Assembly: GCF_050013435.1 (NCBI RefSeq) | Contig: NZ_JBEKFG010000004.1 | Coordinates: forward strand, 12,967-76,966 | Direction of reading: 5' to 3' | DNA: 64,000 nucleotides | Origin: Candidatus Binatus sp. | Lineage (GTDB): Bacteria; Desulfobacterota; Binatia; Binatales; Binataceae | Shown here: positions 46,329 through 64,000 of the stretch, piece by piece | How the letters are laid out: every line of letters starts with the position of its first letter | How positions within the stretch are numbered: the first letter of the stretch is position 1 | Notes under the pieces: generated by a model | Database searches by the model: none | What the model was told of the DNA's origin: nothing | The model's input: the letters and a program-made list of their open reading frames with translations, nothing else | Position numbers and translations under genes: made by a program

Positions 46329-47513
46329 ATGCGCTCGTTGATGTCAGGTACACTAGTAGTGTTGCTGCTCGCGGCGCCGGCGTGGGTGCTGGGCGGCAGT
46401 TCGGAGGCGTCGGCGGCGTCGCCCGAGTTAGCGGCGGTCGCGCCCGGCATAACCTATCCTGTGCTCCCCACCGAGCTGACGCCGCCGACCTACGACTATG
46501 CGGCGCCCGAGACGTGCGCCGGTTGTCATTTTATAGAGGAAGGGAACTTACCTGGCCTCGACCACACTTCGCGTGTATTGGGCGTTTGGTTTGAGAGCGC
46601 TGCCGCTGTCAACGCTTCGTGTACGGCCGGTCCTACGACTTCGGGCGGGGTTACGACCCCCGGCGCTCCATTTGCGTGCTGTACAGGGAAAGGAGCAGGC
46701 ACTTGCTCGAGCATGTGGCAATTGACGGGCAGCGGATGGTTCGCCTCGCGGCACGCGCAGTCCGATTATGCCACGACCGAGAACGGGTTTTGCGCGAAGT
46801 GTCATTCGCCCCTTCAAGCTTACGCTCCCGCAAGCTTCAGCAATGGAGCCGTTGCCAATGCTCCCTCTGTTCCGCAGCAGCGATTCCAAGCTGTGACCTG
46901 TGCAACGTGTCATCCTCCGGATAACATCACCGCGCAGATCGGCGCGTTGAATCCAAGTGCTATGGACGGCGGGGCGGTCTCCATCTATCTCTGGAAGGGC
47001 TACAACAATCCCGCCTCCTATCAGACTCTGAGCACCGGAGTGAACTCCGACGGCACTTCGCAGGAAGACCTGCTATGCCTCAACTGCCATGAGCAGCGTC
47101 ACAACACCGACGATTCGGCCATGTGGGCTATGATGACGACCACCTACGGTCCTAACGGTGGTCCGGTCAGGTGCATCGATTGCCACATGTCGGAGTACCA
47201 GTTCATCGGTGGCGGCAGCACCGGCCTGCCGCTGCTCGAGGAAAGGTTTCACGACTGGAACGTTGGCGCGGACCTTCCTTACTCCTGCGGCGCGGTAGGA
47301 TCAGTGTCGGGATGTCATAACAGCACATATTCCACGTTCACTGTAGCCGACGCGCAGAACCTTATCCCGTTCATTAAAGAGCAGCACACCGATTGGTGGA
47401 CCCTGCCGCCGTTCAATGGAGTGGTACAGGCCGCAGTGCCGGCACACGGGGCGCCTACGCTCATTGAGTACAAGACACTAGAGCGAGAGATATCGAAAAT
47501 TGACGCCATGTGA
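46329..47513 (+). CDS. Secreted multiheme c-type cytochrome (5 CxxCH + one CX8CH)
   Basis: Signal peptide. CAGCH, CAKCH, CATCH, CLNCH, CIDCH, plus LPYSCGAVGSVSGCH (Cys-8 residues-Cys-His). Confidence 0.75.
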   Translation: MRSLMSGTLVVLLLAAPAWVLGGSSEASAASPELAAVAPGITYPVLPTELTPPTYDYAAPETCAGCHFIEEGNLPGLDHTSRVLGVWFESAAAVNASCTAGPTTSGGVTTPGAPFACCTGKGAGTCSSMWQLTGSGWFASRHAQSDYATTENGFCAKCHSPLQAYAPASFSNGAVANAPSVPQQRFQAVTCATCHPPDNITAQIGALNPSAMDGGAVSIYLWKGYNNPASYQTLSTGVNSDGTSQEDLLCLNCHEQRHNTDDSAMWAMMTTTYGPNGGPVRCIDCHMSEYQFIGGGSTGLPLLEERFHDWNVGADLPYSCGAVGSVSGCHNSTYSTFTVADAQNLIPFIKEQHTDWWTLPPFNGVVQAAVPAHGAPTLIEYKTLEREISKIDAM

Positions 47514-50351: not shown

Positions 50352-51281
50352 ATGGCCGATTGTTCGCAATGTGAGACACCGTTCCCGATAGGCGCGAAGT
50401 TCTGCGCTGCGTGCGGCAATCGCGTCGATGCGGCTGGCGTGGACGAACTCCGGCGGCCAAGCGACAGCTGGCCTGGCCGTGGTGGCTTATCAGCTTCATG
50501 GATTGTCGCAGTCAGTGGCGCATTTTTGCTCGGCGGAGTCCTGACGTGGATGTTTATGCCTGCCGGGAAACACGACCGCTCGCAAGTCGCCATGCAGCCA
50601 ACTACCCAGGGACGTGCATCGACTTTGAACGGCCAGGTATCTGGCGTCATGCCGCCCGGACATTCGACGCCCTCCTTACCTTCTGGGCATCCGATGGCTG
50701 GTGGTCCGGCCCACGCCGCCGGCACGCTTATCGCCAAGGCGGAGAAACAGGCCAAGGCCAGTCCCAACGACATCGCAGCCTGGAACCGCCTCGGCGACGT
50801 GGCCTTCCGATCCGCGGTGTTCGACCCCGCGAATTATGACCACGCGCGTGAAGCGTTCACGCACGTGCTGGAACTCGACCCCGACAATCTCGACGCTCTG
50901 CGCGGGCTCGGAAACGTATGCTTCGATCAAAGACAACTCGACAAAGCGATCGCGGCGTACCAGCACTACCTGCGGCTTAAACCGAAAGACGCGCAGGTAC
51001 TAACCGATCTCGGCACGATGTATATGGCCCAGCAAAACTCGCACGAGGCGATCGCGCGCTACTCCGCGGCGCTCGCGCTGGCGCCGAGGTCCTTTCCAGC
51101 TCAGTTTAACCTTGGGGTGGCCTATCTGATGCTCAATGATAACCCCAATGCACGTGAGGCTTTGTCGCGCGCGCGCTCGCTTGCACCTGGAGACGCTGCT
51201 CGCACCAGGATCGATATGCTGTTGGCGCGAATAGATTCAAATGAAATGGCGAAGGGCACTGCTGCCAGCAAGTCGCGATGA
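50352..51281 (+). CDS. Zinc-ribbon / TM / TPR-repeat protein (CcmI/NrfG-like architecture)
   Basis: N-terminal CSQC..CAAC zinc ribbon. One TM helix. A periplasmic region with 4-5 TPR motifs (AWNRLGDVAF.., ALRGLGNVCF.., VLTDLGTMYM.., AQFNLGVAYL..). Confidence 0.6.
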   Translation: MADCSQCETPFPIGAKFCAACGNRVDAAGVDELRRPSDSWPGRGGLSASWIVAVSGAFLLGGVLTWMFMPAGKHDRSQVAMQPTTQGRASTLNGQVSGVMPPGHSTPSLPSGHPMAGGPAHAAGTLIAKAEKQAKASPNDIAAWNRLGDVAFRSAVFDPANYDHAREAFTHVLELDPDNLDALRGLGNVCFDQRQLDKAIAAYQHYLRLKPKDAQVLTDLGTMYMAQQNSHEAIARYSAALALAPRSFPAQFNLGVAYLMLNDNPNAREALSRARSLAPGDAARTRIDMLLARIDSNEMAKGTAASKSR

Positions 51282-51483: not shown

Positions 51484-54132
51484 ATGAACAAGTACGCAGG
51501 AAAAGTACGGATCGGCGTGATCGCGATCTTTTGTGGGCTCGCGTTTGCGATTGTCGGCCTTCATCGTTCTTCAGGCCGCGCCTATAGCGGGGTTCCCACC
51601 CCGACCCTACTGGTTTCGGACGTTTGCTCCTACGCCGTCACGGCTTACTCTGCCGCGAGCAACGGCGACGTCTCCCCGCTGATCCCCGTCCCTACCGGAC
51701 TTTCCGCACCGCAATTTGTGACCATTGACCCGAGTGGAAACATTTACGCCACCAACGCCTGCACCAACACCATCACCATTTACGCCGCGGGGAGCAAAGG
51801 CGACACCGGTCCCATCGCCATCATCGGCGGGCCCATGACCGGCCTGAGCGACCCAGCAGGCATCGCGCTGGATTCCAACCTCAACATCTATGTGGCGAAT
51901 GCAGGCGCCCCAGGCGTGTCTGTCTATCAGCCACTGGGAAGCAGCACCGGGCTGCTCAACGAGACCCCCATCGCCACCATCAGCGGGAGCAACACCGGCC
52001 TGCTCTACCCACAAGGCATCGCGGTGGATTCCAGTGGCAACATCTATGTGGCGGATGAAAGCGCCGCCAGCGTGTTTGTCTATCCGCCGCTGGCAAGCAG
52101 CACCGGGCTGCCCAACGAGAGCCCCATCGCCACCATCAGCGGGCTCGACACCGGCCTGAGCAGCCCCGAAGGCATCGCGCTGGATTCCAGCCTCAACATC
52201 TATGTGGCGGATGAAAGCGCCTCGAGTGTGTTTGTCTATCCGCCGCTGGCAAGCAGCAGCGGGCTGCCCAACGAGGCCCCCATCGCCACCATCAGCGGGA
52301 TCGATACCGGCCTGATCAGCCCATACGGCATCGCGTTGGATTCCACCACCGGCAAGATCTATGTGGCGGACGCGCTCGCCACCGGCGTGTTTGTCTATCC
52401 GGCGCTGGGAAAGAGCGTCGGACTGCCCGACGAGGTCCCCCTCGTCACCATCACCGGGAGCAAGACCGGCCTGAGCTACCCACAAGGCATCGCGCTGGAT
52501 TCCAGCGACGACATTTATGTGGCGGACACCAGCAGCGTGTTTGTCTATTCGGCGGGGAGTAAGGGCAATGCCGCTCCCAGTTCGGCCACCATCAGCACGA
52601 CCATGACCACCGGCCTGGGATGGCCACAAGGCATCGCGCTGGATTCCAGCGGCAAAATCTATATGGCGGATGACGGACCTGGAGCCAATGGCCCCGGCAG
52701 CGTGTTTGTCTATCCGGCCGGGAGCAAGGCCAATGCCGCTCCCACCGCCACCATCAGCGGGACCAACACCGGCCTGAGCTACCCACAAGGCGTCGCGCTG
52801 GATTCCAGCAAAAATATATATGTGGCGGACGAAGGCGCCGTCAGCGTGTTTGTCTATTCGGCGGGGAGCAATGGCAACGTCGCCCCCACCACCATCATTA
52901 GCGGGAGCAACACCGAGTTGGACACCCCGGAAGGCATCGTGGTGGATCCCAGCCTCAACATCTACGTGGCCGACGACGGTGACGGATCTTGCGATGGCAC
53001 CGAGAGTTTGTATGTCTATACGGCCGGGAGCATCGGCAATGCCGCCCCTGGCGCCACCATCAGTGGTGGCAACACCGGTCTGTGCTACCCGTACGGCATC
53101 GCGCTGGATTCCAACCTCAACATCTATGTGGCGGACGAGGGCGCCGCCAGCGTGTTTGTCTATCCTCCCTTGGCCAGCCTCCCCAGCCAGCCCAATTATC
53201 CCAACGTGACTCCCATCGCCACCATCAGCGGGAACAACACCGGCCTGAGCGGTCCGTACGGCATCGCGTTGGATTCCAGCGGCAACATCTATGTGTCGGA
53301 CTATTCCGCCAACGGCGTGCTTACCTATCCGGCGCTGGGAAGCAGCACCGGGCTGCTCAACGAGCCCCCCACCGCCACCATAAGCGGTCCGCTCACAGAA
53401 CTGGGGGAGCCTCAGTTCATCGCCGTCCAGCCGGCTGCCGCGCCGACACCGACGGCAACGGCGACTACCACGCCGACTGTGACGGCCACTCCAACCGCGG
53501 TGGCGACGACCTCGATATCGGTACCGAAGAAGCTGGACGTGGGCAAATCGACGCTGGGCAACACGGTGTCCAAGAACCTCGACGTGAAGAACACGGGGAA
53601 GGCGGACTTGTTCATCAACAGCGTATCCTCATCCGACCCTGAGTTCGTCCCCGGCGCCTCGACCTGTCCGGCGGGCGGGCTTGCGCCCAAGGGCAAGTGC
53701 ACGATCGCGATCGGATTCACGCCGACCGTGCTTGGCGCGGGTAGCGCGACGCTCACGCTCGACGATAACGCGGGCACGGGCACGCAGAACGTGGCGCTGT
53801 CGGGGACGGGGGAGCCCGATGTGACGGTATCGCCCGACAGCATCGCTTACGGCAAGGTGAAGTTGAGCGCAAAGAAAAGCAAGACGGTGAAGGTGAAGAA
53901 CGAGCAGCCGGTGGCGGTGACGCTGAGCCAGATCATCACCGGGACCGACGCGAGCTACTTCACGGTGACGGGCGGGACGTGCAGCGGCACGCTGGCGGCC
54001 AAGGCGAAATGCACCTACATCGTGACGTTCACGCCGGTGCTCGGCGTCGAGCGCACGGCGACGCTCAGTGTCACGGCGAGCCCCGACCTGCTAAGCCCGC
54101 ACAATGTGAGTCTAGCCGGCACCGGCTCATAG
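51484..54132 (+). CDS. Secreted NHL-repeat beta-propeller protein with Thr/Pro linker and C-terminal Ig-like (choice-of-anchor-D-type) domains
   Basis: SD GGGGAGAAG. TM/signal anchor. At least 12 repeats of 'P.GIALDSS.NIYVADE.A.SVFVYP' and an AAAPTPTATATTTPTVTATPTAVATT linker. Three LSGTG-bounded domains as in 1064..4810. Confidence 0.75.
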   Translation: MNKYAGKVRIGVIAIFCGLAFAIVGLHRSSGRAYSGVPTPTLLVSDVCSYAVTAYSAASNGDVSPLIPVPTGLSAPQFVTIDPSGNIYATNACTNTITIYAAGSKGDTGPIAIIGGPMTGLSDPAGIALDSNLNIYVANAGAPGVSVYQPLGSSTGLLNETPIATISGSNTGLLYPQGIAVDSSGNIYVADESAASVFVYPPLASSTGLPNESPIATISGLDTGLSSPEGIALDSSLNIYVADESASSVFVYPPLASSSGLPNEAPIATISGIDTGLISPYGIALDSTTGKIYVADALATGVFVYPALGKSVGLPDEVPLVTITGSKTGLSYPQGIALDSSDDIYVADTSSVFVYSAGSKGNAAPSSATISTTMTTGLGWPQGIALDSSGKIYMADDGPGANGPGSVFVYPAGSKANAAPTATISGTNTGLSYPQGVALDSSKNIYVADEGAVSVFVYSAGSNGNVAPTTIISGSNTELDTPEGIVVDPSLNIYVADDGDGSCDGTESLYVYTAGSIGNAAPGATISGGNTGLCYPYGIALDSNLNIYVADEGAASVFVYPPLASLPSQPNYPNVTPIATISGNNTGLSGPYGIALDSSGNIYVSDYSANGVLTYPALGSSTGLLNEPPTATISGPLTELGEPQFIAVQPAAAPTPTATATTTPTVTATPTAVATTSISVPKKLDVGKSTLGNTVSKNLDVKNTGKADLFINSVSSSDPEFVPGASTCPAGGLAPKGKCTIAIGFTPTVLGAGSATLTLDDNAGTGTQNVALSGTGEPDVTVSPDSIAYGKVKLSAKKSKTVKVKNEQPVAVTLSQIITGTDASYFTVTGGTCSGTLAAKAKCTYIVTFTPVLGVERTATLSVTASPDLLSPHNVSLAGTGS

Positions 54133-54621
54133 GCGGTGCGATCGGGCGCGAACGATCCCGCCGCAATAGAACGAAACGCCCGTCCGGCCATCGTGGCATG
54201 GCATTGGCGAGAACGATATTGGCGATGATCAGCTCGCGCCATGGTCGGCGGCGTCGGCGAATCATGGTATCGTCGCCTAATCAATGTCCCTCGGCAACGC
54301 CGCCCGGACTTCATTCAGAGGAATGGCGCCGACATGACGAGGGATATCGACGGGTGTCCCTCCTCAAAACCTCATCGGGGGCGATGATGCTGTCGTGGAC
54401 ATTGTCCGCGCCAAAAGTTCCATCCGAACACGAGACGGCCGGAAAGCGCTATCGACGATTGCTCACGGCGCCGGAAGTTCGAATCTTGCCCTTTACACTC
54501 GCCTTTGAAGGTGCCGCGCGGAACAGAGCCGCGGCTGGAAAAATCTTGCAACGGGGGGGGCGGTTTGGACTACAAAGCGACTTAAAATGCGAGCGTAAAA
54601 TGCGGCCGGGAGAATTGGGGC

Positions 54622-54637
54622 CGGTATAAAAATTGCT
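54622..54637 (+). promoter_or_regulatory. Candidate sigma-54 (-24/-12) promoter for the mtrAB-like operon
   Basis: cGGTAT-AAAAA-TTGCT. Identical architecture and flanking ATAAAAATTGCTTA as at 45984. Confidence 0.4.
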
Positions 54638-54656
54638 TACTTGGCAGGCTGACGTC

Positions 54657-54860
54657 TTTAGAAATATTAATGAGAGGGCATTTTCCCAAGGGTCACAAGG
54701 CCGCCACGGAAGGGTCCTAAAGCTGAATGGTTCTTCCGGATACGATCGCGTTGTCTTTTGGACACAGTTGTCCTGTCTTGGGGGCGATGTGTAACCGACG
54801 GCGGTAAGCCGCTAGAGGGCGCGTTTGCCGACGGCGGACGCCCGAAATGGAGACGGCAAT
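54657..54860 (+). promoter_or_regulatory. Conserved 5' leader, second copy (see 46018..46328)
   Basis: Aligns to 46018..46223. Here the conserved GGAGACGGCAATATGGA ends exactly at the decaheme cytochrome start codon. Confidence 0.5.
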
Positions 54861-55883
54861 ATGGAGGAGGAACGCAGCTCGCGAAAGTTTTGGGCAGGTC
54901 TTTTGGTGGCACTGGTCGCGGTTGGAATCGCCTTCGTGTTTTCATCGCCCCCCGCAATCGGCGCGGAAGGCACCCTGCTTTCCCAAGCCGCGGGATCGGG
55001 GACGACGCTGCCGCCCGGCTACGTCCATAATGACACCTGCGTCAGTTGCCATGATGTGCAGGTCAAGGCCTTCCGCAACACGATGATGGGCCATCTTATG
55101 CTGGGCCGGCCGCGCGACGACCGAGAAAGCCTCGCGTGCCAGGCCTGTCATGGTCCCGGCCGCGAGCACTTACGCCATCCGAGCAAGCCGTCGCCGGGAT
55201 TTGTGAGCTTTCGCGAGACCTCCTTCAAGGACATCAAGGTTGAGAACGAGCGGTGCCTCGAATGCCATCAAAACGGCGAGCGCGGCTTCTGGCGGGCCAG
55301 CACCCACGCCGAGCGCGGCATTCGATGCGTCGATTGTCACGCCGTGATGTGTCCGGTGACGGCGAGCGCGCTGCCGCAGGCGCAACTCAAGAAGTCGCCG
55401 CTTGGCACGGAGTTCGTCAATCCATTCATCGTGACGCGCCCCGAAACCCAGGTTTGCCTGCGCTGCCATCTCGACAAAAAGATGGAGATCAATCTGCCGT
55501 CGCACATGCCGCTGCGCGAGGGATTGATGACGTGCACCGACTGCCACAACCCACATGGCGGGCCGTATCAGAAGCAATTGCGGGCGGCGATGGTCAATGA
55601 GGTCTGCTACCGCTGCCATGCCGAGAAGCGCGGGCCGTTCCTGTGGATGCATGCGCCGGTGGCGATGAACTGCATCAATTGCCATGTCCCGCACGGCAGC
55701 GTGAATCAGCACATGCTGGTGATCAACATGCCGGTGCTGTGCCAGCGCTGCCACATCGGAACTAGTCATACGAGTCAACCTCATAGGAGAGGTCAAATTT
55801 TCGTGATCAACCAGCAATGCGCCAATTGCCATTCACAGATACACGGCTCGAACTCGCCGGGCGGGAGATATTTCACGCGTTGA
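54861..55883 (+). CDS. Periplasmic decaheme c-type cytochrome, MtrA/PioA/MtoA/DmsE family
   Basis: Start MEEERSSRKFWAGLLVALVAV (signal anchor). Ten CxxCH motifs in about 340 aa, several as CxxCHxPHG. Directly followed by an MtrB/PioB-type barrel gene. Confidence 0.75.
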   Translation: MEEERSSRKFWAGLLVALVAVGIAFVFSSPPAIGAEGTLLSQAAGSGTTLPPGYVHNDTCVSCHDVQVKAFRNTMMGHLMLGRPRDDRESLACQACHGPGREHLRHPSKPSPGFVSFRETSFKDIKVENERCLECHQNGERGFWRASTHAERGIRCVDCHAVMCPVTASALPQAQLKKSPLGTEFVNPFIVTRPETQVCLRCHLDKKMEINLPSHMPLREGLMTCTDCHNPHGGPYQKQLRAAMVNEVCYRCHAEKRGPFLWMHAPVAMNCINCHVPHGSVNQHMLVINMPVLCQRCHIGTSHTSQPHRRGQIFVINQQCANCHSQIHGSNSPGGRYFTR

Positions 55884-55954
55884 AGCGGGAGGCACAGGAA
55901 AGCACGGCATCGCTGGGCCGCACCGCGTTTTGCAACCGGCCCGGGAGGAAAGTC

Positions 55955-58210
55955 ATGAACCTCAAGCGGTTGTTAGCCGGATGTGGAACGATGGCGCTCG
56001 TGTTGTCGATGGTCTCGCCGGCACTGGCACAGGTCGATGTCGGGAAATACACGGTGCAGGGATCGGTCGAGGCGGGCGCCATCCCCCAGCCCGTCCCCTA
56101 TGACGACTCCGCGGCGAAGTATCAGGAGTACCGCGATCTGGCGCAGCAGTTCATCGTGCCGAAACTCCAGTTGATCCTGGGCGACAAGGCGGAGAACTAC
56201 TACGTGCAGTTCGACGCGGTTAACGTCGCACAAAAGAACCAGATGTATTCGCTGCGCTTCGGCGAGTACGGCCTGCTCGATGTTCAGGCAAAATTCTTCG
56301 AGATTCCACACGCCTTCAGCGACGGCGTCGCGAGCACGCCATACGACGAAAACGGCGGCAGCTTCACGCTATCCTCGAAGCCCACTGGTACCGGCACCGC
56401 CCTCCAATCCTGGCTGGCAGCGAACGACAAACCGTTCGACATGAGCCTGCTCGAAGGTGTCGCGGACATCAACGTGCGCTATACGCCCACGCCGTCGCTG
56501 AGCTTCAGCGCGAACCTGGATTATCAGAACCCCACCGGCCAACAGCCATTCGGTGGCAGCTTCATGTTTGGCGCCAATCCGGGCAGTTACAAAGTGAACG
56601 AACTCTGGGCGCCAATTCAGTACTACATCTATAACTTCGGCACCGGCATGGAATACGCGAAAAACGGATGGCTGGTGGGGTTCCAGTACCAGGGATCCTT
56701 CTTCGTCGACGACTACAGCACCCTGACCTGGGACAACCCGCTCAATACCAGCGGAGTAGGCGGCAATTGCGTGGATTCCACCGTCTTCAGTTCCACGTCG
56801 CTTACCGGCCCATGCGAGGGACGGGCAGCGATGTATCCGAACAACCAGGCTCACAACTTCATCGTGAATGGAGCGGGTCAGCTTCCATTCAACACGCACG
56901 TGATGGGCAGCCTCGAGTACGGATTCTGGCTCCAGAACTCTCCCTTCATCCCGCTTACGAGCAACAGCACGCTGAAGCAGTCATTAAGTTCGGTCGGGGC
57001 GCCCAATAGCCTCGGCGGCGACGTGCAACCTTTCTTCGCCAACTTCACGATCGACAGCAATCCGATCGAGCCGCTGGACATCAAGGCGGTCTATACCTAT
57101 TTCGATTACGACAACCTGACGCCGGGGGTCACCTTCAAAGGCGTTAAGTCGCTCAATGACATCTCGGACCCGCAGATGCCTTTCAGCGCTTATCCCTTTT
57201 CATTTTCGGAGCAGGACGTCAGCCTCGAGCCAACCTACCACGTGACTGATACTATAGCCGCGCACTTTACTATGAAGTGGCAGACCAACCACAACGAGGG
57301 GCTGGAGGTGCTGCAGCAGGATCAGCTCAGCTATGGGCCTGCGCTCGATTGGAACCCATATCCGTGGCTGACTTTCCGGGCGGATTACCAGCACGCGCAC
57401 CGCGACTCGCCGGGATACAACAACAACCGCGCCGACCTAGTCGAGATCCTTGGCGGGATCCCGGGAGGGATCGCGGAGGTTCAGGACCTGCGGCGGTTCG
57501 ACGAGGCCACGGTCGATGTGAACCAGACTTCGCTCTATGCCTCCGTGCAGCCGATCGAAAACGTCAGCCTGTTCAGCTCCTTCAGCTACGACGACTATAA
57601 CTACCCCTCGACCGACTTCGGCCTGCAGCATACGTCGAGCTACACGCCGTCGGTGGGGGGCAGTTACGATCCGCTTCCGACCCTGCATTTTTTCGGCGAC
57701 TACGCATGGCAAGCGTACGATTGGAACCTAAGGTCGCTTTACGGGGGTACCGGCGTAAAGCCGGGTGTGCCGGGAAAATCGTGGGTTTGGACGGCGGATG
57801 GCCGCAACCAGGGCAACAATTTCGATCTCGGGATGGACGTCGCGATACCGCAGAATCATATCCTGAAGCGGCCGTCGCACCTGAAAATCCAGTACACCTA
57901 TACGGTTGGCAGCAACCTCACCCACCAATCGGGCGCTACGGCGGCCGGTTCGGCGTCGGAGGCGATCGACTATCCAAATGCCGGCACCCAGATGGAAGAG
58001 TTGATGGTTCAGTACGAGTACGATTTGCGCGACAACCTCGCGATCAACATCGGGTACTACTTCAACAATTTCGGCGAACACAATTACATGGTGGACCAGA
58101 TGGCGAACTACATGCCCGGCGCCAGCAAAAACTCGACATTTCTCGGCAACTCCGACATGTCCCCCTACAACGCCAATGTCGGATTCATAACTCTTAAATA
58201 CAAATTTTAA
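55955..58210 (+). CDS. MtrB/PioB-family outer-membrane beta-barrel (porin component of porin-cytochrome conduit)
   Basis: SD GGAGGA. Signal peptide MNLKRLLAGCGTMALVLSMVSPALA. About 750 aa, rich in alternating aromatic beta-strand pattern. C-terminal ..GFITLKYKF ends in the aromatic residue typical of OMPs. Position after the decaheme gene. Confidence 0.7.
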   Translation: MNLKRLLAGCGTMALVLSMVSPALAQVDVGKYTVQGSVEAGAIPQPVPYDDSAAKYQEYRDLAQQFIVPKLQLILGDKAENYYVQFDAVNVAQKNQMYSLRFGEYGLLDVQAKFFEIPHAFSDGVASTPYDENGGSFTLSSKPTGTGTALQSWLAANDKPFDMSLLEGVADINVRYTPTPSLSFSANLDYQNPTGQQPFGGSFMFGANPGSYKVNELWAPIQYYIYNFGTGMEYAKNGWLVGFQYQGSFFVDDYSTLTWDNPLNTSGVGGNCVDSTVFSSTSLTGPCEGRAAMYPNNQAHNFIVNGAGQLPFNTHVMGSLEYGFWLQNSPFIPLTSNSTLKQSLSSVGAPNSLGGDVQPFFANFTIDSNPIEPLDIKAVYTYFDYDNLTPGVTFKGVKSLNDISDPQMPFSAYPFSFSEQDVSLEPTYHVTDTIAAHFTMKWQTNHNEGLEVLQQDQLSYGPALDWNPYPWLTFRADYQHAHRDSPGYNNNRADLVEILGGIPGGIAEVQDLRRFDEATVDVNQTSLYASVQPIENVSLFSSFSYDDYNYPSTDFGLQHTSSYTPSVGGSYDPLPTLHFFGDYAWQAYDWNLRSLYGGTGVKPGVPGKSWVWTADGRNQGNNFDLGMDVAIPQNHILKRPSHLKIQYTYTVGSNLTHQSGATAAGSASEAIDYPNAGTQMEELMVQYEYDLRDNLAINIGYYFNNFGEHNYMVDQMANYMPGASKNSTFLGNSDMSPYNANVGFITLKYKF

Positions 58211-58331
58211 GCCGAGGCTATTGGAGTACGAGCAGCAAGAGTCCGGGACAAACAACGAATGACCTATCTTCCGCCGCGGCCCGGCCCGCAAATCAAACGG
58301 CGGAAAAGGAATGGAAGGAAGGAGAGAAGAC

Positions 58332-58745
58332 ATGACCGAGAGTTTGACAACCAAGGGTCGATCGAGAGTGTGGATTTGGACCGCGACGGTTATACCGGCG
58401 GTTGCAGCGCTGGCGTTGATCTCAACCGCCGCCCGCGCAGCCGATCTCACGTCCGCGGCCAGCAGCTACACGGATACGTGCGCCAAGTGCCACGGCCCGG
58501 CCGGCAAGGGCGACGGTCCCAAAGCGGCCGAGCTGAAAGACAAGGACGGCAAACCGGTCGCCATCGGAGATTTGTCCGATTGCGCCAAGATGAGCAAGGT
58601 TACCGATGACGACTTGTTCAAGGAGCTGAAAGAGGGCGGCGCGTCGGTGGGCAAGAGCAAGTTCATGACGCCCTATGGCGATGCGATGGAGGATGACGAG
58701 ATCAAGGCGATGGTTGCGTACGTCAGAACCTTGTGCAAGAAGTAG
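58332..58745 (+). CDS. Periplasmic monoheme class-I cytochrome c (MtoD-like position)
   Basis: SD GGAAGGAAGGAG. Signal peptide. Single CAKCHG heme site. Met-containing C-terminal half (KFMTPYGDAMEDDEIKAMVAYV). Confidence 0.75.
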   Translation: MTESLTTKGRSRVWIWTATVIPAVAALALISTAARAADLTSAASSYTDTCAKCHGPAGKGDGPKAAELKDKDGKPVAIGDLSDCAKMSKVTDDDLFKELKEGGASVGKSKFMTPYGDAMEDDEIKAMVAYVRTLCKK

Positions 58746-58774
58746 CGGCGCGCACCACGTCGGCAATCGGCCAT

Positions 58775-58880
58775 CCCAATACGGGCACTCAGTTCCATGG
58801 GTTGATGTTTTAGTATGTGTACGATTTTGCGCGATAACGTCGCGATCAACGTCGGCTACTACTTCAGCAAGTTTAGATAA
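58775..58880 (+). pseudogene. Remnant of a second mtrB-like gene 3' end
   Basis: Aligns to mtrB 57966..58210 with internal deletions (..ACGATTTTGCGCGATAACGTCGCGATCAACGTCGGCTACTACTTCAGCAAGTTTAGATAA against ..ACGATTTGCGCGACAACCTCGCGATCAACATCGGGTACTACTTC..AAATACAAATTTTAA). Confidence 0.55.
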
Positions 58881-58910
58881 CCCGCTTTCACCGAAGGAAG
58901 GAGATAAGCC

Positions 58911-59324
58911 ATGTCGAAGAGTTTGAGCAGTAAAATTCGATCGAGTCTGTGGATTTGCACCGCGTCGGCCATACCGGCGGTTGCAGCACTGGCGTTGTTC
59001 TCAACCACCGCCCGCGCAGCCGATCTCACGTCCGCGGCCAGCAGTTATACGGATACGTGCGCCAAGTGCCACGGTGCGGCCGGCAAGGGCGACGGCCCTA
59101 AAGCGGCCGAACTGAAAGACGCGGCCGGCAAGCTGGTCGCCATCGGAGATTTGTCCGATTGCGCCACGATGGCCAAGGTTACTGACGACGACATGTTCAA
59201 GGAGCTGAAAGAGGGCGGCGTGTCGGTGGGCAAGAGCAAGTTCATGACGCCCTATGGCGATGCGATGGAGGACGACGAGATCAAGGCGATGGTTGCGTAC
59301 GTCAGAACCTTGTGCAAGAAGTAG
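58911..59324 (+). CDS. Periplasmic monoheme class-I cytochrome c, tandem duplicate of 58332..58745
   Basis: About 90% identical protein with the same CAKCHG site and its own strong SD (GAAGGAAGGAG). Confidence 0.75.
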   Translation: MSKSLSSKIRSSLWICTASAIPAVAALALFSTTARAADLTSAASSYTDTCAKCHGAAGKGDGPKAAELKDAAGKLVAIGDLSDCATMAKVTDDDMFKELKEGGVSVGKSKFMTPYGDAMEDDEIKAMVAYVRTLCKK

Positions 59325-59612
59325 CGACGCGCGTCAAGCTCGAGTATGAGTCCAGGCGCGCGGGATTGAGGGCGAGCAGACTTAGGCAGCCGCCGGCTTG
59401 TAGTTGGCCGGCGGCCTTGCGCAGCAGTTGTACTGGCATTCCCTCTGACCACCCAAAGCAGCCGAGTGAATGCCCTCGCACGGGTAACCGACTAGATCTC
59501 ACCAGAGAGCGACTCACGGCAAGCGGGTCCGATCCCAGGGATCGGACCGCTTGCCGCTCGGAAACCGGGCGTCGCTTCCCTATATTCAAAAAAGAAGCAA
59601 CGCAGGTGGAAT

Positions 59613-61145
59613 ATGCAAACGAGCGGAGATGAGCCGGGCGCGCCGGAAGTGGAGCGCCCGGAGGGGCAAAATGGCGGCGCAGCCGAACGCCAATTGCCAA
59701 GTTTGGCTCGCAATCGGCTGAGTATCGCTGGTCTGATCATTGCCGTCATCATCCTGGCGGACATGCTTTCCCTGGCCGGCATGACGATGCTGGGGGTGCA
59801 GCTGAACCCCTACGTCGGCATTTTTGCCTACCTGATCGGTCCGGCCGTCATGATAGTAGGCCTGTTGCTCATTCCGGCCGGCATGCTGATCGAACGTCGA
59901 CGGCGCCGGAGATTTTTGCCCGGTGAGCTGCCGCCCTTTCCCAAGCTCGATCTCAACCAGCCTTCGGTTCGGCGCGGCTTTCTCGGCGCGGTCGGCTTTG
60001 CGTTCTTTTTCGTGGCTCTCAGCATGGTGGCGAGCTACCAGGGCTACCAGTTCACGGACTCGGTGATGTTCTGCGGGCAGACCTGTCACGTCCCGATGAA
60101 GCCGGAATTCGACGCCTACCAGGATTCGCCGCACGCGCGGGTCGCATGCGCGGGCTGCCACGTGGGACCCGGCGCCACCTGGTTTGTTCGCTCCAAGCTG
60201 TCGGGCGCCTATCAGGTCTATGCGGTAATGTTCAACAAGTACCCCAGACCTATCGAAACTCCGATCAAGGAGTTGCGCCCGATTCGCGCTGCCTGCGAGC
60301 AATGCCATTGGCCACAGAAGTTCTACGGCGCGCAACTCAAGGTCTTCCCGCATTATGGATACGACGAGAAGAACACTCCCATGCGTATCCAGATGCTGAT
60401 CAAGACCGGAGGAGGAACTGCCGAATTCGGCCACGCCACCGGAATTCACTGGCACATGAACATCGCCAACGAAGTATGGTTCGCGGCTACTGACAAGCAG
60501 TCCCAGGTGATTCCGTGGGTAAAAGTGAGGACGCCTGACGGAAGGACCACGGAATACCTTGCCAAGGGCAGTACGCTGACCCCAAAGCAGATCGAAGCGA
60601 TGCCCATCCAGCAGATGGACTGCGTGAGCTGCCATGCCCGCCCGTCGCATAAGTTCCTTCCGCCCGATCAGGCGGTCGATGCGTCGTTCGAGGCGGGTCA
60701 GCTAGACCCTTCGCTGCCCTTCCTGAAGAGGCAGGCGGTCAAGGCCCTGATTAAGCACTACAGCACGTCGGAGGAGGCGGCCGAGGGAATCGCAACCTCC
60801 CTCGATACCTTTTACCGCAATCGCTATTCCGAGATTTATACCGTGAAGTGGCCGCAAATCCGCGCTGCCATCGCCGCCGTGCAGCAGATCTACAAAAAGA
60901 ACATGTTTCCTTTCATGCACGTTGACTGGCGCACTCATCCCGACAACATCGGCCACCTCTATTACCCGGGATGTTTCCGCTGTCACGATGGGCAGCACGT
61001 CAGCTCTGATGGCCGGGTGATACCGCAGGATTGCGATACCTGTCACTCGGTCCTTGCAACTCCTACAAGTGTCGCCCAGTTCAAGCATCCAGTTGATGTG
61101 GGCGACACGACTTGCAGCGCCTGTCATACAGGAGGCGTGCTGTAA
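59613..61145 (+). CDS. Inner-membrane heptaheme c-type cytochrome, ImcH-like (NapC/NirT-related quinol dehydrogenase)
   Basis: Two or three N-terminal TM helices. Seven CxxCH (CGQTCH, CAGCH, CEQCH, CVSCH, CFRCH, CDTCH, CSACH). Length (510 aa) and layout match Geobacter ImcH-type proteins. Confidence 0.5.
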   Translation: MQTSGDEPGAPEVERPEGQNGGAAERQLPSLARNRLSIAGLIIAVIILADMLSLAGMTMLGVQLNPYVGIFAYLIGPAVMIVGLLLIPAGMLIERRRRRRFLPGELPPFPKLDLNQPSVRRGFLGAVGFAFFFVALSMVASYQGYQFTDSVMFCGQTCHVPMKPEFDAYQDSPHARVACAGCHVGPGATWFVRSKLSGAYQVYAVMFNKYPRPIETPIKELRPIRAACEQCHWPQKFYGAQLKVFPHYGYDEKNTPMRIQMLIKTGGGTAEFGHATGIHWHMNIANEVWFAATDKQSQVIPWVKVRTPDGRTTEYLAKGSTLTPKQIEAMPIQQMDCVSCHARPSHKFLPPDQAVDASFEAGQLDPSLPFLKRQAVKALIKHYSTSEEAAEGIATSLDTFYRNRYSEIYTVKWPQIRAAIAAVQQIYKKNMFPFMHVDWRTHPDNIGHLYYPGCFRCHDGQHVSSDGRVIPQDCDTCHSVLATPTSVAQFKHPVDVGDTTCSACHTGGVL

Positions 61146-61172
61146 GCGAATCGGCGCGGACGAGAGAGACAA

Positions 61173-62474
61173 ATGGCGCACGGATCAAGACGGATGGTTA
61201 GCGGCTTTGGGCGCATCGCGTGCGCTGTTGCGGCAATGCTGCTGTGTGCGGTCGCGATGGGCCATGCCGCAGCGACGACCAAGGCCGCTGCGACCGAGGG
61301 CGCTGCGACGACCAAGGCCGCTGCGGCCAAGGTGCTCACCGATAAGGATTGCCTGGGATGCCATAATCTGAAGGCCAGCGCCAAGTTGCAGGCGCGGGTG
61401 GTTAGCGTCTACGTCAATGCGGAGATTTACCAGCCCTCGGTCCATTCGAAGGTAGGTTGTGTCGCCTGCCATTCTGACATCCATGCCTTTCCACATCCCG
61501 ATTCGGTCAAGCCGGTTTCATGCGCCGGCTGCCACGCGAGCGAGACTTCGGGGTATGCGGGCAGCGTTCATGCAATCGCCGAGCGGGAGAAGAAGAGCCG
61601 CTTTCCGGCCTGTCTCAACTGTCACGGCAACCCCCACGGCATCCTGGCCAAGACTGACCCGAAGTCGCGAGTCTATCCGCTCAACCTGCCGCGCACCTGT
61701 GGCACCTGCCACGGAAATCCCGAGCTTGCCAAGAAATATGGCTTTCCGGATGTGTACGCGTTGTACATGGATTCGATTCACGGCTTCGCCCTGACCTCCG
61801 ACGGGCTGTTGGTGGCGGCAACCTGCGCCAGTTGCCATGGGGCGCACGATATCCTGAGCAGAAAGGACCCGAAGAGCCGGACCTTCCCTAAAAATGTGCC
61901 CGCCACCTGTGGCGGGTGCCATGCCGGCGTCCAAGTCGACTACCTTGCCGGAGCGCACGGCCAGGCGATGACCGCCGGGCGCGCGAATGCTCCGGTATGC
62001 ACCAATTGCCATACCGCGCATCAGATTGCCCAGGTGGACGTCGTGAACTGGCAACTCAAAACCGTCGCCACCTGCGGCAACTGTCACAAGACGAGGCTTA
62101 AGAGCTACCGCGATACTTTCCACGGCCAGGTGACCGAACTCGGTTTCGTCGCCACGGCACGATGCTGGAGTTGCCATGGCTCTCACCTGATTCTGAAGGC
62201 TTCCGATCCGAAGTCCAAGGTCGCGCCGGCCAACCTCCCAACCACGTGCGGCAAGTGCCACGCCGGCGCAACCGCGAGTTTTGTCAGCTACGAGCCACAT
62301 CCCAATGTGCACGACCGGCGGCAGAACCCGGCTTTATATTACGCGGCCCTCTTCATGAACCTGCTGCTGGTGGGGGTTTTCCTCTTCTTCGGCCTGCACA
62401 CAGCGCTATGGCTTGCGCGGTCGCTGGGGAACGGGTCGCGGGGGAAGGGCAATGGAGTGAGCGGTGAACAGTAA
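61173..62474 (+). CDS. 11-heme c-type cytochrome with C-terminal TM anchor (Cbc/CbcL-type periplasmic subunit)
   Basis: Signal peptide. Eleven CxxCH, many as CxxCHxxH/CxxCHGxPHG. C-terminal hydrophobic helix LYYAALFMNLLLVGVFLFFGL. Overlaps the downstream b-type cytochrome gene by 11 nt. Confidence 0.7.
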   Translation: MAHGSRRMVSGFGRIACAVAAMLLCAVAMGHAAATTKAAATEGAATTKAAAAKVLTDKDCLGCHNLKASAKLQARVVSVYVNAEIYQPSVHSKVGCVACHSDIHAFPHPDSVKPVSCAGCHASETSGYAGSVHAIAEREKKSRFPACLNCHGNPHGILAKTDPKSRVYPLNLPRTCGTCHGNPELAKKYGFPDVYALYMDSIHGFALTSDGLLVAATCASCHGAHDILSRKDPKSRTFPKNVPATCGGCHAGVQVDYLAGAHGQAMTAGRANAPVCTNCHTAHQIAQVDVVNWQLKTVATCGNCHKTRLKSYRDTFHGQVTELGFVATARCWSCHGSHLILKASDPKSKVAPANLPTTCGKCHAGATASFVSYEPHPNVHDRRQNPALYYAALFMNLLLVGVFLFFGLHTALWLARSLGNGSRGKGNGVSGEQ

Positions 62475-63294
62475 CGATTCAGAACAATATTATTTTCGCT
62501 TCTCGCTGGGGCAGCGCTACCTGCACGGCTTGGTGATCACAACCTTTTTGGGTCTTGCCGCCACCGGAATGACCCTGCGGTTCAGCGAACGGGGTTGGGC
62601 AAAGTCACTGGCGGAAATCGCCGGCGGATTCACTGCGATCCTATCTCTGCATAAGTTCTGCGCGGTGCTTATATCAGCCGGCTTTCTCTACCATATTGGA
62701 GAGCTCTTCTATCGGGCGATGATAAAGAAGGAGCGGGGCCTTTTTTTGGGGCCATACTCGATGACTCCGCAGCCCAAGGATGCCGTGGACCTCTTTGAGA
62801 TGCTGCGCTGGTTCCTTTGGATGGGTCCGCAGCCCAAATTCGACCATTTTGCCTACTGGGAGAAGTTCGACTATTGGGCGGTGTTCTGGGGAATGGCGAT
62901 TATCGGCGCCACCGGCTACATGATGTGGTTCGGACCTTTCTTTGCCCGCTTCGTGCCCGGCTACCTACTCAATATCGCGCTCCTGATTCACGGTGAGGAA
63001 GCTCTGCTGGCCGTCTGGTTCATCTTCATTATCCACTTTTTTAATTCCCACCTGCGCCCTGAGAAGTTTCCGCTCGACCCTGTGATATTTACCGGCCGCG
63101 TCAGCGGTGGAGACTACCAGCACGAGCGCCCGCTGGATTATTCGCGGCTTGGCGAGTCCGGCGCCCTGGAAGCGTTGCGCAGTGACCCGCCTCCCCTTTG
63201 GCTCAAGAATTTCTCCCGCTTGATCGCGATTGTTGCGGTCGGCATCGGCTTTGCGTTGCTCGCGCTTACCTGGATCGCCTTTTGGACCGAGTAG
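62464..63294 (+). CDS. Membrane di-heme b-type cytochrome (HydC/FdnI/cytochrome b561-like) partner of the 11-heme cytochrome
   Basis: Five TM helices. RYLHG motif in helix 1 and conserved His in later helices (LIHGEE, IHFFNSH), consistent with the PF01292-type fold. Confidence 0.55.
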
Positions 63295-63445
63295 CCGCAT
63301 GCCCGCCAATTATAATTTTTCTGTCACGGCCCGCAGGCTTGTTTTTGTTGCCTGCTCGCCGTATGTTCACGCGCATTAAACTACAGACTCCTATTGAACT
63401 GGAGCACCAGAACATGAACGCCGCTATCGCACAAGGAGAATCGCA

Positions 63446-64000
63446 ATGGTATCCGGTGTAATTATACTCATCGCCGCAATCTTCATTTTGAGCGGCGTCA
63501 AAATCCTTAACGAATACCAGCGCGCCGTAGTCTTCCGCCTTGGGCGGCTCATGCGGTACCGCGGCCCAGGCATAATTTACGTGATCCCCTTCATTGAGCG
63601 GATGGTCCGGATCGATCTGCGTACGGTCGTGCTCGATGTCCCACCGCAGGACGTAATCACCAAGGACAACGTGACCGTCAAGGTGAGCGCGGTGCTCTAC
63701 TTCCGGGTGAGCGATCCATCGCGCGCGGTTACCGAGGTGGCAAATTACCTGTTCGCGACCATGCAGCTCGCGCAGACCACGCTGCGCTCCGTCGGCGGAC
63801 AGACCGAACTCGACGAACTCTTAAGCCAGCGCGACAAAGTCAACGCGCGCATCCAGTCGATCGTCGATGCCCATACTGAGCCGTGGGGAATCAAGGTCAT
63901 TCTCGTCGAGTTGAAGAACATTGACCTGCCGCAGGACATGCAGCGCGCGATCGCCGCGCAGGCCGAGGCCGAGCGCGAACGGCGCGCCAAGGTTATCGCG
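63446..64000 (+). CDS. SPFH/band-7 (stomatin/HflC-like) protein, 3' end beyond window
   Basis: SD AAGGAG. N-terminal [23 protein letters not shown] core ([35 protein letters not shown]..). Reading frame open to 64000. Confidence 0.75.

What the first reader, a model, noticed from the sequence alone, without database searches (positions are those of the whole stretch)
54600..63300. Full outer-to-inner-membrane extracellular electron transfer gene set in one operon
Genes in order: decaheme MtrA/PioA-like cytochrome, MtrB/PioB-like barrel, 2x monoheme cyt c, ImcH-like 7-heme inner-membrane cytochrome, 11-heme cytochrome plus b-type cytochrome. Known systems usually separate the porin-cytochrome conduit (Mtr/Pio/Mto) from the inner-membrane quinol oxidoreductases (CymA, ImcH, CbcL). 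Here an Mto/Pio-like module sits contiguous with Geobacter-type ImcH- and Cbc-like modules. The sequence alone cannot tell whether the cluster oxidises or reduces iron.
Basis: partly seen in the sequence, partly recalled or inferred. Interest (0 to 1): 0.8.

Follow-up and report, generated by a model that had tools for sequence, protein, structure and literature searches.

The report
Binatia electron-conduit gene island with ImcH
An uncultured peat-soil bacterium (Candidatus Binatus) keeps, side by side, genes for an outer-membrane electron conduit, small periplasmic cytochromes and two inner-membrane quinone-linked cytochromes. This is a real and recurrent variant of known iron-cycling gene clusters, but the sequence does not show which way the electrons flow.

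Summary
Seven co-directional genes at 54.8-63.3 kb encode:
- a 10-heme MtrA/DmsE-family cytochrome
- an MtrB/PioB barrel (predicted fold best matches MtrB 6R2Q_B)
- two 85%-identical monoheme cytochromes c
- an ImcH-type 7-heme protein with three membrane helices
- an 11-heme cytochrome plus a separate b-type cytochrome

The last two genes together are a split form of the fused CbcL/MtoC/MtrH type.

Conduits next to inner-membrane quinone oxidoreductases are already known: mtoAB-cymA, mtoAB-mtoC, and Rhodoferax cymA/mtrH-mtrABC. What is unusual is ImcH beside mtrAB, which a 2018 survey never saw, and having both module types together.

The set is part of a larger island (about 42-64+ kb). The island also holds:
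- a histidine kinase and a sigma-54-dependent regulator
- duplicated sigma-54-like promoter and leader copies
- two paralogous cytochromes with 5 CXXCH and a CX8-10CH motif
- Kelch, TPR and NHL proteins
- just past the window, a Rieske/cytochrome b complex

The combination recurs in Binatia, Acidobacteriota and Verrucomicrobiota genomes.

The direction of electron flow is unresolved. I lean slightly towards uptake. Verdict: new variant of a known kind, moderate interest.

The parts
42089..43834 (+). Sensor histidine kinase (HisKA + HATPase_c)
   Evidence: Pfam match. It lies directly upstream of mtrA in L003, L005, L010 and L012.
43848..45272 (+). Sigma-54-dependent response regulator (REC + sigma-54 interaction AAA+ + Fis-type HTH). 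The ORF opens at 43734; the likely start is Met at 43848.
   Evidence: Pfam Sigma54_activat E=4e-68, plus Response_reg and HTH_8. This is the same domain architecture as Geobacter BccR.
45984..45999 (+). Sigma-54-like -24/-12 element CGGCATAAAAATTGCT upstream of P5a. It opens a roughly 250-nt promoter and leader copy (45976-46226) that is homologous to the one upstream of mtrA.
   Evidence: Conserved in L001 and L002.
46329..47513 (+). P5a: secreted cytochrome with 5 CXXCH and an invariant PYSCG..GS..CH (CX8CH) motif
   Evidence: The family is found immediately after decaheme-porin gene pairs in Acidobacteriota.
47527..49086 (+). P5b: paralogue of P5a (about 40% identity), with 5 CXXCH and a CX10CH motif
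49083..50336 (+). Secreted Kelch beta-propeller protein
   Evidence: Pfam Kelch_1 E=6e-34 and a signal peptide. It travels with P5a/P5b in L001, L002, L014, L016, L017, L019, L024 and L061-L063.
50352..51281 (+). Zinc-ribbon / one membrane helix / TPR protein with a CcmH/CycH-type TPR domain
   Evidence: Pfam TPR families, and PF23914 at 44.8 bits against a cut-off of 42. Syntenic with P5a/P5b and the Kelch protein.
51484..54132 (+). NHL beta-propeller protein with ASH/Ig-like domains and an N-terminal signal or anchor
   Evidence: Pfam NHL E=2.5e-56 and ASH. Present in L001, L014 and L063.
54622..54637 (+). Sigma-54-like -24/-12 element CGGTATAAAAATTGCT, followed by a conserved leader of about 225 nt upstream of mtrA
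   Evidence: Conserved in L001, L003, L005, L010 and L012. Homologous to the copy at 45984.
54861..55883 (+). MtrA/MtoA-like periplasmic decaheme cytochrome c (the ORF opens at 54825)
   Evidence: 10 CXXCH. TIGR03508 scores 229 bits, above its cut-off. Match to 6R2Q_A at E=2.3e-54.
55955..58210 (+). MtrB/PioB-family outer-membrane beta-barrel
   Evidence: PF11854 E=3.5e-68. The AF2 model has about 26-28 strands. Foldseek top hit is 6R2Q_B, E=5.6e-26.
58311..58745 (+). Monoheme class I cytochrome c, copy 1. It has a single His, so ligation is probably His/Met.
58911..59324 (+). Monoheme class I cytochrome c, copy 2, 85% identical to copy 1
   Evidence: Weak match to MtoD 4XXL, E=0.0065.
59613..61145 (+). 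ImcH-type inner-membrane cytochrome: three membrane helices, one CX3CH and six CXXCH
   Evidence: The NrfH-like region (residues 128-238) matches 2J7A_C.
61173..62474 (+). 11-heme periplasmic cytochrome with a C-terminal membrane helix that carries a His. This is the c-type half of a split CbcL/MtoC-type protein.
62464..63294 (+). b-type cytochrome with about five membrane helices (FdnI/HydC-like). This is the b-type half of the split protein.
63446..64000 (+). SPFH/Band-7 protein, cut off by the window end. In the collinear relative L001 it is followed by a third monoheme c, a Rieske protein and a cytochrome b fused to a diheme c.

Best explanation
The region is the core of a trans-envelope extracellular-electron-transfer island in a Candidatus Binatus (Binatia) genome.

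**Proposed wiring**
- An MtrA-like decaheme sits inside an MtrB-like barrel and carries electrons across the outer membrane.
- Two His/Met-type monoheme cytochromes c act as periplasmic shuttles.
- Two inner-membrane modules connect to the quinone pool. One is an ImcH-type NapC/NirT-like 7-heme protein. The other is a split CbcL/MtoC-type bc cytochrome.
- Expression is probably driven by sigma-54 promoters under the adjacent kinase and NtrC-type regulator.
- The upstream P5a/P5b cytochromes are the most likely outer-surface partners, with their Kelch, TPR and NHL companions.

**Kind of system**
It is an Mto-type cluster (mtoA-mtoB-mtoD-mtoC) with ImcH added.

**What is shown and what is inferred**
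- Shown: the gene families, the topology and the conserved synteny.
- Inferred: the wiring, the regulation, where P5a/P5b are located, and the direction of flow.

**Direction**
I lean slightly towards electron uptake, meaning oxidation of Fe(II) or reduced humic material. I put this at about 0.45, against about 0.40 for outward reduction. My reasons:
- The best-conserved partner of the conduit is a class I monoheme c.
- There is no MtrC.
- Relatives add a cupredoxin and a Rieske/cytochrome b complex.
For: - **Families and heme counts:**
- **MtrA:** homologous to 6R2Q_A.
- **MtrB:** fold supported by the model and by Foldseek.
- **ImcH:** motif and topology signature matches the published GSU3259 and Koribacter entries. 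The Koribacter-MAG homologue P0111 is 55% identical.
- **Split bc cytochrome:** H11 and Cb align collinearly with a fused 616-aa c+b protein, at E=4e-64 and 8e-24. The heme spacing matches published MtoC-family members.
- **Synteny across 60 genome loci found through MtrB:**
  - A-B-monoheme c is nearly universal in Binatia.
  - The full set is present in L001, L005, L007, L010, L012 and L014.
  - The same set is rearranged at 43-51% MtrB identity in L061-L063.
  - It also occurs in an acidobacterial MAG (L065), in a Blastocatellia MAG (L069, where the porin is unverified) and in a Verrucomicrobiia MAG (L032).
- **Regulation:** duplicated sigma-54-like promoter and leader copies lie upstream of both operons, next to a sigma-54 regulator.
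- **No MtrC:** the 64-kb window holds no other multiheme ORF.
- **Monoheme c ligation:** C1 and C2 each have only one His.
- **High-potential companions:** L063 has a cupredoxin. Rieske/cytochrome b genes are adjacent in L001, L004, L005, L012, L025, L028, L039, L063 and L065.
Against: - There is no experimental or expression evidence of any kind.
- ImcH and CbcL are so far known functionally only as quinol oxidases of metal reducers.
- Geobacter ImcH hemes titrate at -350 to -150 mV. That suits outward flow and is a poor fit for reducing quinone with Fe(II) electrons.
- If P5a/P5b are surface cytochromes, the system resembles a complete MtrCAB/Pcc-type reducing conduit.
- Only 8 of the 60 MtrB-anchored loci carry ImcH within 10 kb, so ImcH is an optional module.
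- I could not align directly against GSU3259, GSU0274 or Galf_2006, because no reference sequences were available. Membership therefore rests on motif positions and on intermediaries.
- The sigma-54 elements deviate from the consensus at three positions, and the simple consensus scan was not enriched over chance.
Confidence: 0.6

Rival explanations
1. The hardware is the same, but it runs outwards as a dissimilatory pathway that reduces extracellular Fe(III), Mn(IV) or humic substances. Quinol is oxidised by ImcH or by the split CbcL-type module, possibly at different potentials as in Geobacter. Electrons then pass through the periplasmic cytochromes and MtrAB to P5a/P5b on the cell surface. 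This would give an oxygen-limited methylotroph or alkane degrader an alternative electron sink.
For: - ImcH, CbcL and CbcBA are quinol oxidases of metal reducers, and ImcH homologues had been found only in reducers.
- Control by a sigma-54 regulator parallels BccR-cbcBA.
- P5-family cytochromes occupy the position of the outer cytochrome after decaheme-porin gene pairs in Acidobacteriota.
- P5 shows weak profile similarity to multiheme chains 9yuq_N (deposited as 16 chains) and 7tfs_A.
- At acidic pH, Fe(III) couples are high-potential, so a route through a class I cytochrome c and a bc complex could run outwards. This last point is my inference.
Against: - There is no MtrC/OmcA homologue.
- The best-conserved periplasmic partner is a His/Met-type monoheme c, which no characterised reducing pathway uses.
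- H11 resembles MtoC-clade heme spacing more than Geobacter CbcL.
- Binatota are described as having an aerobic respiratory chain.
Confidence: 0.4
2. The conduit serves an extracellular non-heme enzyme rather than minerals, by analogy with DmsEF feeding the surface DMSO reductase. The secreted Kelch and NHL beta-propeller proteins would be the catalytic or substrate-binding partners outside the cell.
For: - The decaheme passes the DmsE-family model.
- Kelch and NHL proteins with signal peptides are syntenic with the conduit across lineages.
- There are faint resemblances to glyoxal/galactose oxidase and to SMP-30/arylesterase.
Against: - No cofactor-binding or catalytic motifs were identified.
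- Kelch and NHL are generic scaffolds.
- These genes are absent from many loci that keep MtrAB-c.
- The P5 cytochromes are a simpler candidate for the surface partner.
Confidence: 0.1
3. The adjacency is incidental. The ImcH/H11/Cb genes form an independent respiratory module that merely lies next to mtrAB in this genome.
For: - ImcH is missing from most MtrAB loci of Binatia.
- ImcH occurs without a conduit in an NC10 contig (L066).
- A 288-nt gap precedes imcH.
Against: - The combination recurs with rearranged gene order at 43-51% MtrB identity.
- It also recurs in Acidobacteriota and Verrucomicrobiota MAGs. Neutral drift would be expected to break such a linkage.
Confidence: 0.08

Closest known systems
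mtoAB-mtoC clusters of Gallionella capsiferriformans ES-2 and Dechloromonas aromatica RCB, and mtoD-mtoA-mtoB-cymA of Sideroxydans lithotrophicus ES-1
   Same: - A decaheme plus an MtrB-type barrel, with no MtrC.
- A small class I cytochrome c.
- An inner-membrane quinone-linked cytochrome encoded alongside the conduit.
- H11's first and last heme spacings (36, 21 ... 25, 30, 28) match MtoC Galf_2006 (37, 23 ... 25, 30, 28).
   Different: - The MtoC-type protein is split into an 11-heme c gene and a b gene.
- An ImcH gene is added.
- The monoheme c is duplicated and has only one His. From memory, MtoD is bis-His.
- The host is Binatia, not Betaproteobacteria.
- There are extra P5/Kelch/TPR/NHL genes and sigma-54 control.
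Geobacter sulfurreducens ImcH (GSU3259)
   Same: - Three membrane helices.
- One CX3CH plus six CXXCH, at nearly identical spacings.
- A NapC/NirT/NrfH-like quinol site region.
   Different: - The last heme motif lies 27 rather than 38 residues after the sixth.
- In Geobacter, imcH is not next to a porin-cytochrome conduit. The 2018 survey found none adjacent to mtrAB.
Geobacter CbcL (fused 9-heme c plus six-helix b) and CbcBA with BccR
   Same: - A multiheme c domain coupled to an FdnI/HydC-like b-type membrane domain.
- Six membrane helices in total, as in CbcL.
- As in CbcBA, c and b are separate genes in the order c then b, and the c subunit has a C-terminal helix carrying a His.
- A REC/sigma-54/HTH regulator lies nearby.
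   Different: - 11 hemes rather than 9 or 7.
- Heme spacing differs from CbcL.
- Homology to CbcB was not tested.
Shewanella MtrCAB with CymA
   Same: - MtrA homologue, E=2e-54 to 6R2Q_A.
- Predicted barrel superposes on 6R2Q_B.
   Different: - No MtrC/OmcA.
- No CymA tetraheme.
- No direct sequence match of the barrel to MtrB by phmmer.
- Below the NCBIfam MtrB/PioB cut-off.
Rhodopseudomonas palustris PioABC
   Same: A conduit without an outer decaheme, encoded next to a small soluble periplasmic carrier.
   Different: - The carrier here is a cytochrome c, not a HiPIP.
- The decaheme lacks the long PioA N-terminal extension (340 aa here).
- Inner-membrane modules are present.

Membership tests
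MtrA/DmsE decaheme cytochrome family | Ten CXXCH motifs in a periplasmic protein of about 320-350 aa that passes the family model | tested here: met
   10 CXXCH. TIGR03508 scores 229 bits against a cut-off of 192.2. Match to 6R2Q_A at E=2.3e-54 over residues 60-350. Signal peptide present.
MtrB/PioB outer-membrane barrel | Passes the family profile | tested here: inconclusive
   Pfam PF11854 scores 231 bits against a cut-off of 23, over the full length. NCBIfam TIGR03509 scores 186.5 bits, below its cut-off of 240. No phmmer match to the 6R2Q_B sequence.
MtrB/PioB outer-membrane barrel | Large (about 26-strand) barrel fold, encoded directly after the decaheme gene | tested here: met
   The AF2 model has mean pLDDT 66.6, with the strands above 90, and about 26-28 long strands. 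Foldseek top hit is 6R2Q_B at E=5.6e-26 and TM 0.65/0.74; the next hits have TM about 0.34. The gene starts 72 nt after mtrA ends.
ImcH | Three N-terminal membrane helices, then one CX3CH and about six CXXCH at conserved spacing, with a NapC/NirT-like region | tested here: met
   Hydropathy gives helices at about 31-49, 64-82 and 122-140. Motifs lie at 154, 179, 228, 337, 454, 474 and 501, against 132, 156, 205, 311, 428, 448 and 486 published for GSU3259. PF03264 scores 37.9 bits against a cut-off of 24.1.
ImcH | Full-length sequence homology and clade membership with GSU3259 | not tested
   No Geobacter reference sequence was obtainable. The only link is indirect: 55% identity to a Koribacter-MAG protein (P0111), and the Koribacter Ellin345 protein Acid345_2712 is in the published ImcH list.
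CbcL/MtoC/MtrH | A single polypeptide with an N-terminal multiheme c domain fused to a C-terminal six-helix b-type domain | tested here: not met
   There are two genes overlapping by 11 nt (61173-62474 and 62464-63294). The split is kept in L001, L007, L010, L012, L014, L017, L062 and L063, so it is not a sequencing frameshift.
CbcL/MtoC/MtrH | Homology of both halves to a fused c+b protein, and family-like heme and helix spacing | tested here: met
   H11 aligns to residues 13-329 and Cb to residues 378-602 of the fused 616-aa protein in L065. Heme spacings are 36, 21, 30, 29, 42, 28, 30, 25, 30, 28, against 38, 23, 36, 28, 43, 28, 30, 25, 34, 28 in the listed Verrucomicrobia homologue. There are 1+5 membrane helices. 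PF01292 scores only 27.5 bits against a cut-off of 30.1.
MtoD (Sideroxydans periplasmic shuttle) | Class I monoheme c encoded beside mtoAB, with sequence similarity to 4XXL | tested here: inconclusive
   Position and class are met. Similarity to 4XXL_A is weak, E=0.0065. C1 and C2 each have only one His, so bis-His ligation, which I recall for MtoD, is impossible.
MtrC/OmcA outer decaheme | An extracellular decaheme lipoprotein encoded with mtrAB | tested here: not met
   No other ORF with at least 2 CXXCH in the 64 kb apart from P5a and P5b. The P5 profile does not hit MtrC, OmcA or MtrF structures.
Fe(II)-oxidising Mto pathway (system level) | The host oxidises Fe(II) and the cluster is needed or induced for it | not testable with these tools
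   The lineage is uncultured and no expression data were examined.

The most novel reading that the evidence does not exclude
This island represents an undescribed, widely shared soil EET 'supercluster' found in Binatia, Acidobacteriota and Verrucomicrobiota. It would combine:
- a porin-cytochrome conduit
- a new family of surface cytochromes carrying an unconventional CX8-10CH heme site, with their own maturation helper
- class I cytochromes c
- ImcH
- a CbcL/MtoC-type module
- a Rieske/cytochrome b complex

Together these would form a high-potential, energy-conserving and possibly reversible link between the quinone pool and extracellular Fe or humics in acidic soils.
Probability: 0.25. Interest if true: 0.8.

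Novelty: new variant of a known kind. Interest (0 to 1): 0.55.

Why it matters
- **Habitat and host.** Binatales are abundant in acidic peat and forest soils. They have been described only as aerobic methylotrophs and alkane degraders. The founding genomic survey does not mention multiheme cytochromes or EET.
- **Carbon cycling.** A conserved, regulated conduit wired to the quinone pool would make these bacteria candidate players in Fe and humic redox cycling. That cycling controls carbon loss from thawing peat.
- **ImcH as a marker.** The cluster contradicts the 2018 generalisation that imcH is never found beside mtrAB. It also shows ImcH together with an MtoC-type module, which bears on whether ImcH is strictly a marker of reducers.
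- **A testable cytochrome family.** The P5 family, with its extra CXnCH motif, is a concrete candidate for a new outer-surface cytochrome.

Tried and rejected
- **Exact-sequence look-up of the MtrB protein:** not on record.
- **phmmer of the barrel against PDB:** found nothing, so I used structure prediction instead.
- **AF2 model of P5a from a 40-sequence alignment:** too poor to search with (mean pLDDT 53.7). The idea that P5a/P5b are 'half-MtrC' or nanowire-like proteins therefore stays untested. The profile search gave only weak hits.
- **Sigma-54 consensus scan with up to 2 mismatches:** not enriched over chance (25 matches found, 28.8 expected). The promoter proposal rests on conservation and duplication, not on that scan.
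- **Structured RNA in the conserved leader:** no Rfam match, and only 1 of 50 predicted pairs covaries. Not supported.
- **hhalign of the MtrB profile against the acidobacterial 709-aa protein next to a decaheme:** no relationship detected (probability 4.8%). Those porins remain unverified.
- **Residue-level matching to the ImcH residues E127, K173 and Y188:** abandoned, because the numbering offset could not be fixed without the reference sequence.
- **Decaheme phylogeny against MtoA, PioA and MtrA:** not done, because no reference sequences were obtainable.
- **Literature searches for Binatia or Binatota together with EET or MtrB:** nothing relevant found.

Full report
**Observation.** The + strand between 54.8 and 63.3 kb carries seven consecutive ORFs. 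Motif counting gives 10, 0, 1, 1, 6 (+1 CX3CH), 11 and 0 CXXCH.
- The first ORF passes the DmsE/MtrA decaheme model: TIGR03508 scores 229 bits against a cut-off of 192. It matches MtrA of the solved Mtr complex, 6R2Q_A, at E=2.3e-54.
- The second matches Pfam MtrB_PioB over its whole length at E=3.5e-68. It falls below the stricter NCBIfam cut-off and has no direct sequence match in the PDB.
- Upstream conservation and a GGAGA ribosome-binding site place the mtrA start at 54861. A signal peptide and 751-aa homologues place the mtrB start at 55955.

- An AlphaFold model of the barrel, built from a 17-sequence alignment, has low-confidence loops. Its strands are confident (pLDDT above 90) and number about 26-28.
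- Foldseek against the PDB ranks MtrB 6R2Q_B first at E=5.6e-26 and TM 0.65/0.74. The next hits are 22-strand TonB-dependent transporters at TM about 0.34.
- The 510-aa protein has three N-terminal membrane helices and a NapC/NirT-like region that matches NrfH only over residues 128-238.
- Its heme motifs lie at 154 (CX3CH), 179, 228, 337, 454, 474 and 501. The published table of ImcH homologues gives GSU3259 motifs at 132, 156, 205, 311, 428, 448 and 486, with helices at 13-35, 45-67 and 100-122. The spacings agree except for the last.
- Its family is very large (more than 7,400 hits). It includes a Koribacter-MAG protein at 55% identity, and Koribacter Acid345_2712 is in the published ImcH list.
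A direct alignment to GSU3259 was not possible.

**The 11-heme and b-type pair.**
- H11 has a signal peptide and a C-terminal helix containing a His. Cb has about five helices and conserved histidines.
- In an acidobacterial MAG (L065), one 616-aa protein carries 10 hemes and a Ni_hydr_CYTB domain. H11 aligns to its residues 13-329 (37% identity, E=4e-64) and Cb to residues 378-602 (E=8e-24).
- H11's heme spacing closely follows an 11-heme, 723-aa Verrucomicrobia entry in the published CbcL/MtoC/MtrH list. At both ends it also follows MtoC of Gallionella ES-2.
- The pair is therefore a split member of that type. The split is conserved in relatives. It resembles the CbcA/CbcB arrangement, where the c subunit's C-terminal helix supplies a b-heme ligand.

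**Origin and conservation.**
- The best homologues are from Candidatus Binatus and Binataceae. L001, from a palsa peat MAG, is collinear with the window at 93-99% protein identity.
- A genome scan with an MtrB alignment returned 60 loci.
- MtrA-MtrB followed by a monoheme c is nearly universal in Binatia.
- The full order A-B-c-c-ImcH-H11-Cb occurs in six close relatives (L014 has one c copy), and partly in L015.
- Other Binatia put a monoheme c, a Rieske protein and a cytochrome b directly after mtrB (L004), or a multiheme c plus Rieske/cytochrome b (L025, L028, L039).
- Contigs with only 43-51% MtrB identity carry the same set in different orders (L061-L063). In L063 the set also includes a cupredoxin and a Rieske/cytochrome b complex.
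- Further loci show the same combination:
  - a Koribacter-like MAG: MtrA, MtrB, c, Rieske, cytochrome b, multiheme c, fused CbcL-type, ImcH
  - a Blastocatellia MAG: decaheme, unverified porin, P5, then c, fused CbcL-type, ImcH
  - a Verrucomicrobiia MAG, L032
- Repeated reassembly of these modules across phyla argues for functional linkage.

**The island is larger than the flagged region.**
- Upstream lie a histidine kinase and a REC/sigma-54/HTH regulator, followed by two paralogous cytochromes (P5a and P5b). After them come a secreted Kelch propeller, a zinc-ribbon/TPR protein with a CcmH/CycH-type TPR domain, and an NHL/Ig-like protein.
- The P5-Kelch-TPR block is found either upstream or downstream of mtrAB in other Binatia.
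- About 250 nt upstream of P5a (45976-46226) is homologous to the region upstream of mtrA.
  - Each copy begins with CGG(C/T)ATAAAAATTGCT. This has the GG-N10-GC spacing of sigma-54 promoters.
  - Each then contains the identical stretch TTTAGAAATATTAATGAG.
- The mtrA copy is conserved in five relatives.
- Downstream, the window ends inside an SPFH gene. In L001 this is followed by a third monoheme c, a Rieske protein and a cytochrome b fused to a diheme c.

**Mechanism.**
- *Shown:* gene families, heme counts, topology, fold, synteny.
- *Inferred:* an MtrAB conduit, soluble monoheme c shuttles, two quinone-linked inner-membrane modules, sigma-54 control, and P5a/P5b as surface partners. The P5 inference rests on this family sitting directly after decaheme-porin gene pairs in Acidobacteriota.
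- *Direction:* cannot be settled from sequence.
  - For uptake: the composition is Mto-like. There is no MtrC. The best-conserved partner is a class I c with a single His, hence His/Met ligation. Relatives carry a cupredoxin and a Rieske/cytochrome b complex. The lineage is described as aerobic.
  - For reduction: ImcH and Cbc modules are known only as quinol oxidases of reducers, and ImcH hemes are low-potential. The candidate surface cytochromes also point this way.
  - I put uptake at about 0.45, reduction at about 0.40, and service of an extracellular enzyme at about 0.1.

**Comparison with what is known.**
- The same paper states that no mtrAB/mtoAB was adjacent to imcH and that ImcH occurred only in reducers.
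- I found no later paper describing this adjacency, or describing EET in Binatia.
- I therefore class it as a new variant of a known kind, of moderate interest.

Noticed in passing
window 46329-47513 and 47527-49086; alignments A2/A3; L068, L069: P5a and P5b define a cytochrome family with 5 CXXCH plus an invariant PYSCG-x2-G(S/A)-x4-6-CH motif (CX8CH or CX10CH). The motif is conserved in all 40 aligned homologues from Binatia and Acidobacteriota, which suggests an unconventional sixth heme site. In L068 the family sits beside ResB/CcsA genes. In Binatia it sits beside a CcmH/CycH-type TPR protein, so it may need dedicated maturation.
   Followed up: partly
window 45976-46226 versus 54614-54866: A direct repeat of about 250 nt (74% identity). 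It comprises a sigma-54-like -24/-12 element, a conserved leader, the ribosome-binding site and the ATG. It lies upstream of both P5a and mtrA. There is no Rfam match and too little covariation to call an RNA structure. It looks like promoter and leader duplication accompanying module insertion.
   Followed up: partly
window 882-897 and 1016-4810: A third similar sigma-54-like element (CGGCATAAGAGTTGCT) lies about 130 nt upstream of a 1264-aa NHL/ASH-domain paralogue of the cluster's NHL protein, 50 kb away. It may belong to the same regulon.
   Followed up: no
window 58311-58745 and 58911-59324: The two monoheme cytochromes c are tandem paralogues, 85% identical. Each has a single His and a conserved extra Cys pair. 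Most close relatives keep two copies; L014 has one.
   Followed up: partly
window 63446-64000; L001 17515-21323: Past the flagged region lies an SPFH/Band-7 gene. In the collinear relative L001 it is followed by a third monoheme c, a Rieske protein and a cytochrome b fused to a diheme c. In L004 the latter three genes directly follow mtrB.
   Followed up: partly
L004 and L017 (same 3.24-Mb contig CAWJET010000001.1): One Binatia genome carries two paralogous mtrAB loci (82% and 47% MtrB identity to the window). They have different companion modules: c-Rieske-cytochrome b in one, and P5-Kelch-TPR-c-H11-Cb in the other.
   Followed up: no
L014 about 14500-17550: In this relative, roughly 3 kb is inserted between imcH (which appears truncated) and the 11-heme gene. 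The content was not examined.
   Followed up: no
L043, L048, L052, L053, L060: Sigma-54-type response regulators (36-45% identical to the window's) also lie next to distant MtrAB-like pairs in MAGs of Gemmatimonas, Geobacter and Acidobacteriota.
   Followed up: no
L067 4741-9509: A metagenome contig has a 10-heme cytochrome, a 733-aa protein with no Pfam match (possibly a porin) and an ImcH homologue as consecutive genes.
   Followed up: no
window 37599-38873: A 424-aa ORF with a Swt1-like HEPN domain. It is unrelated to the finding.
   Followed up: no
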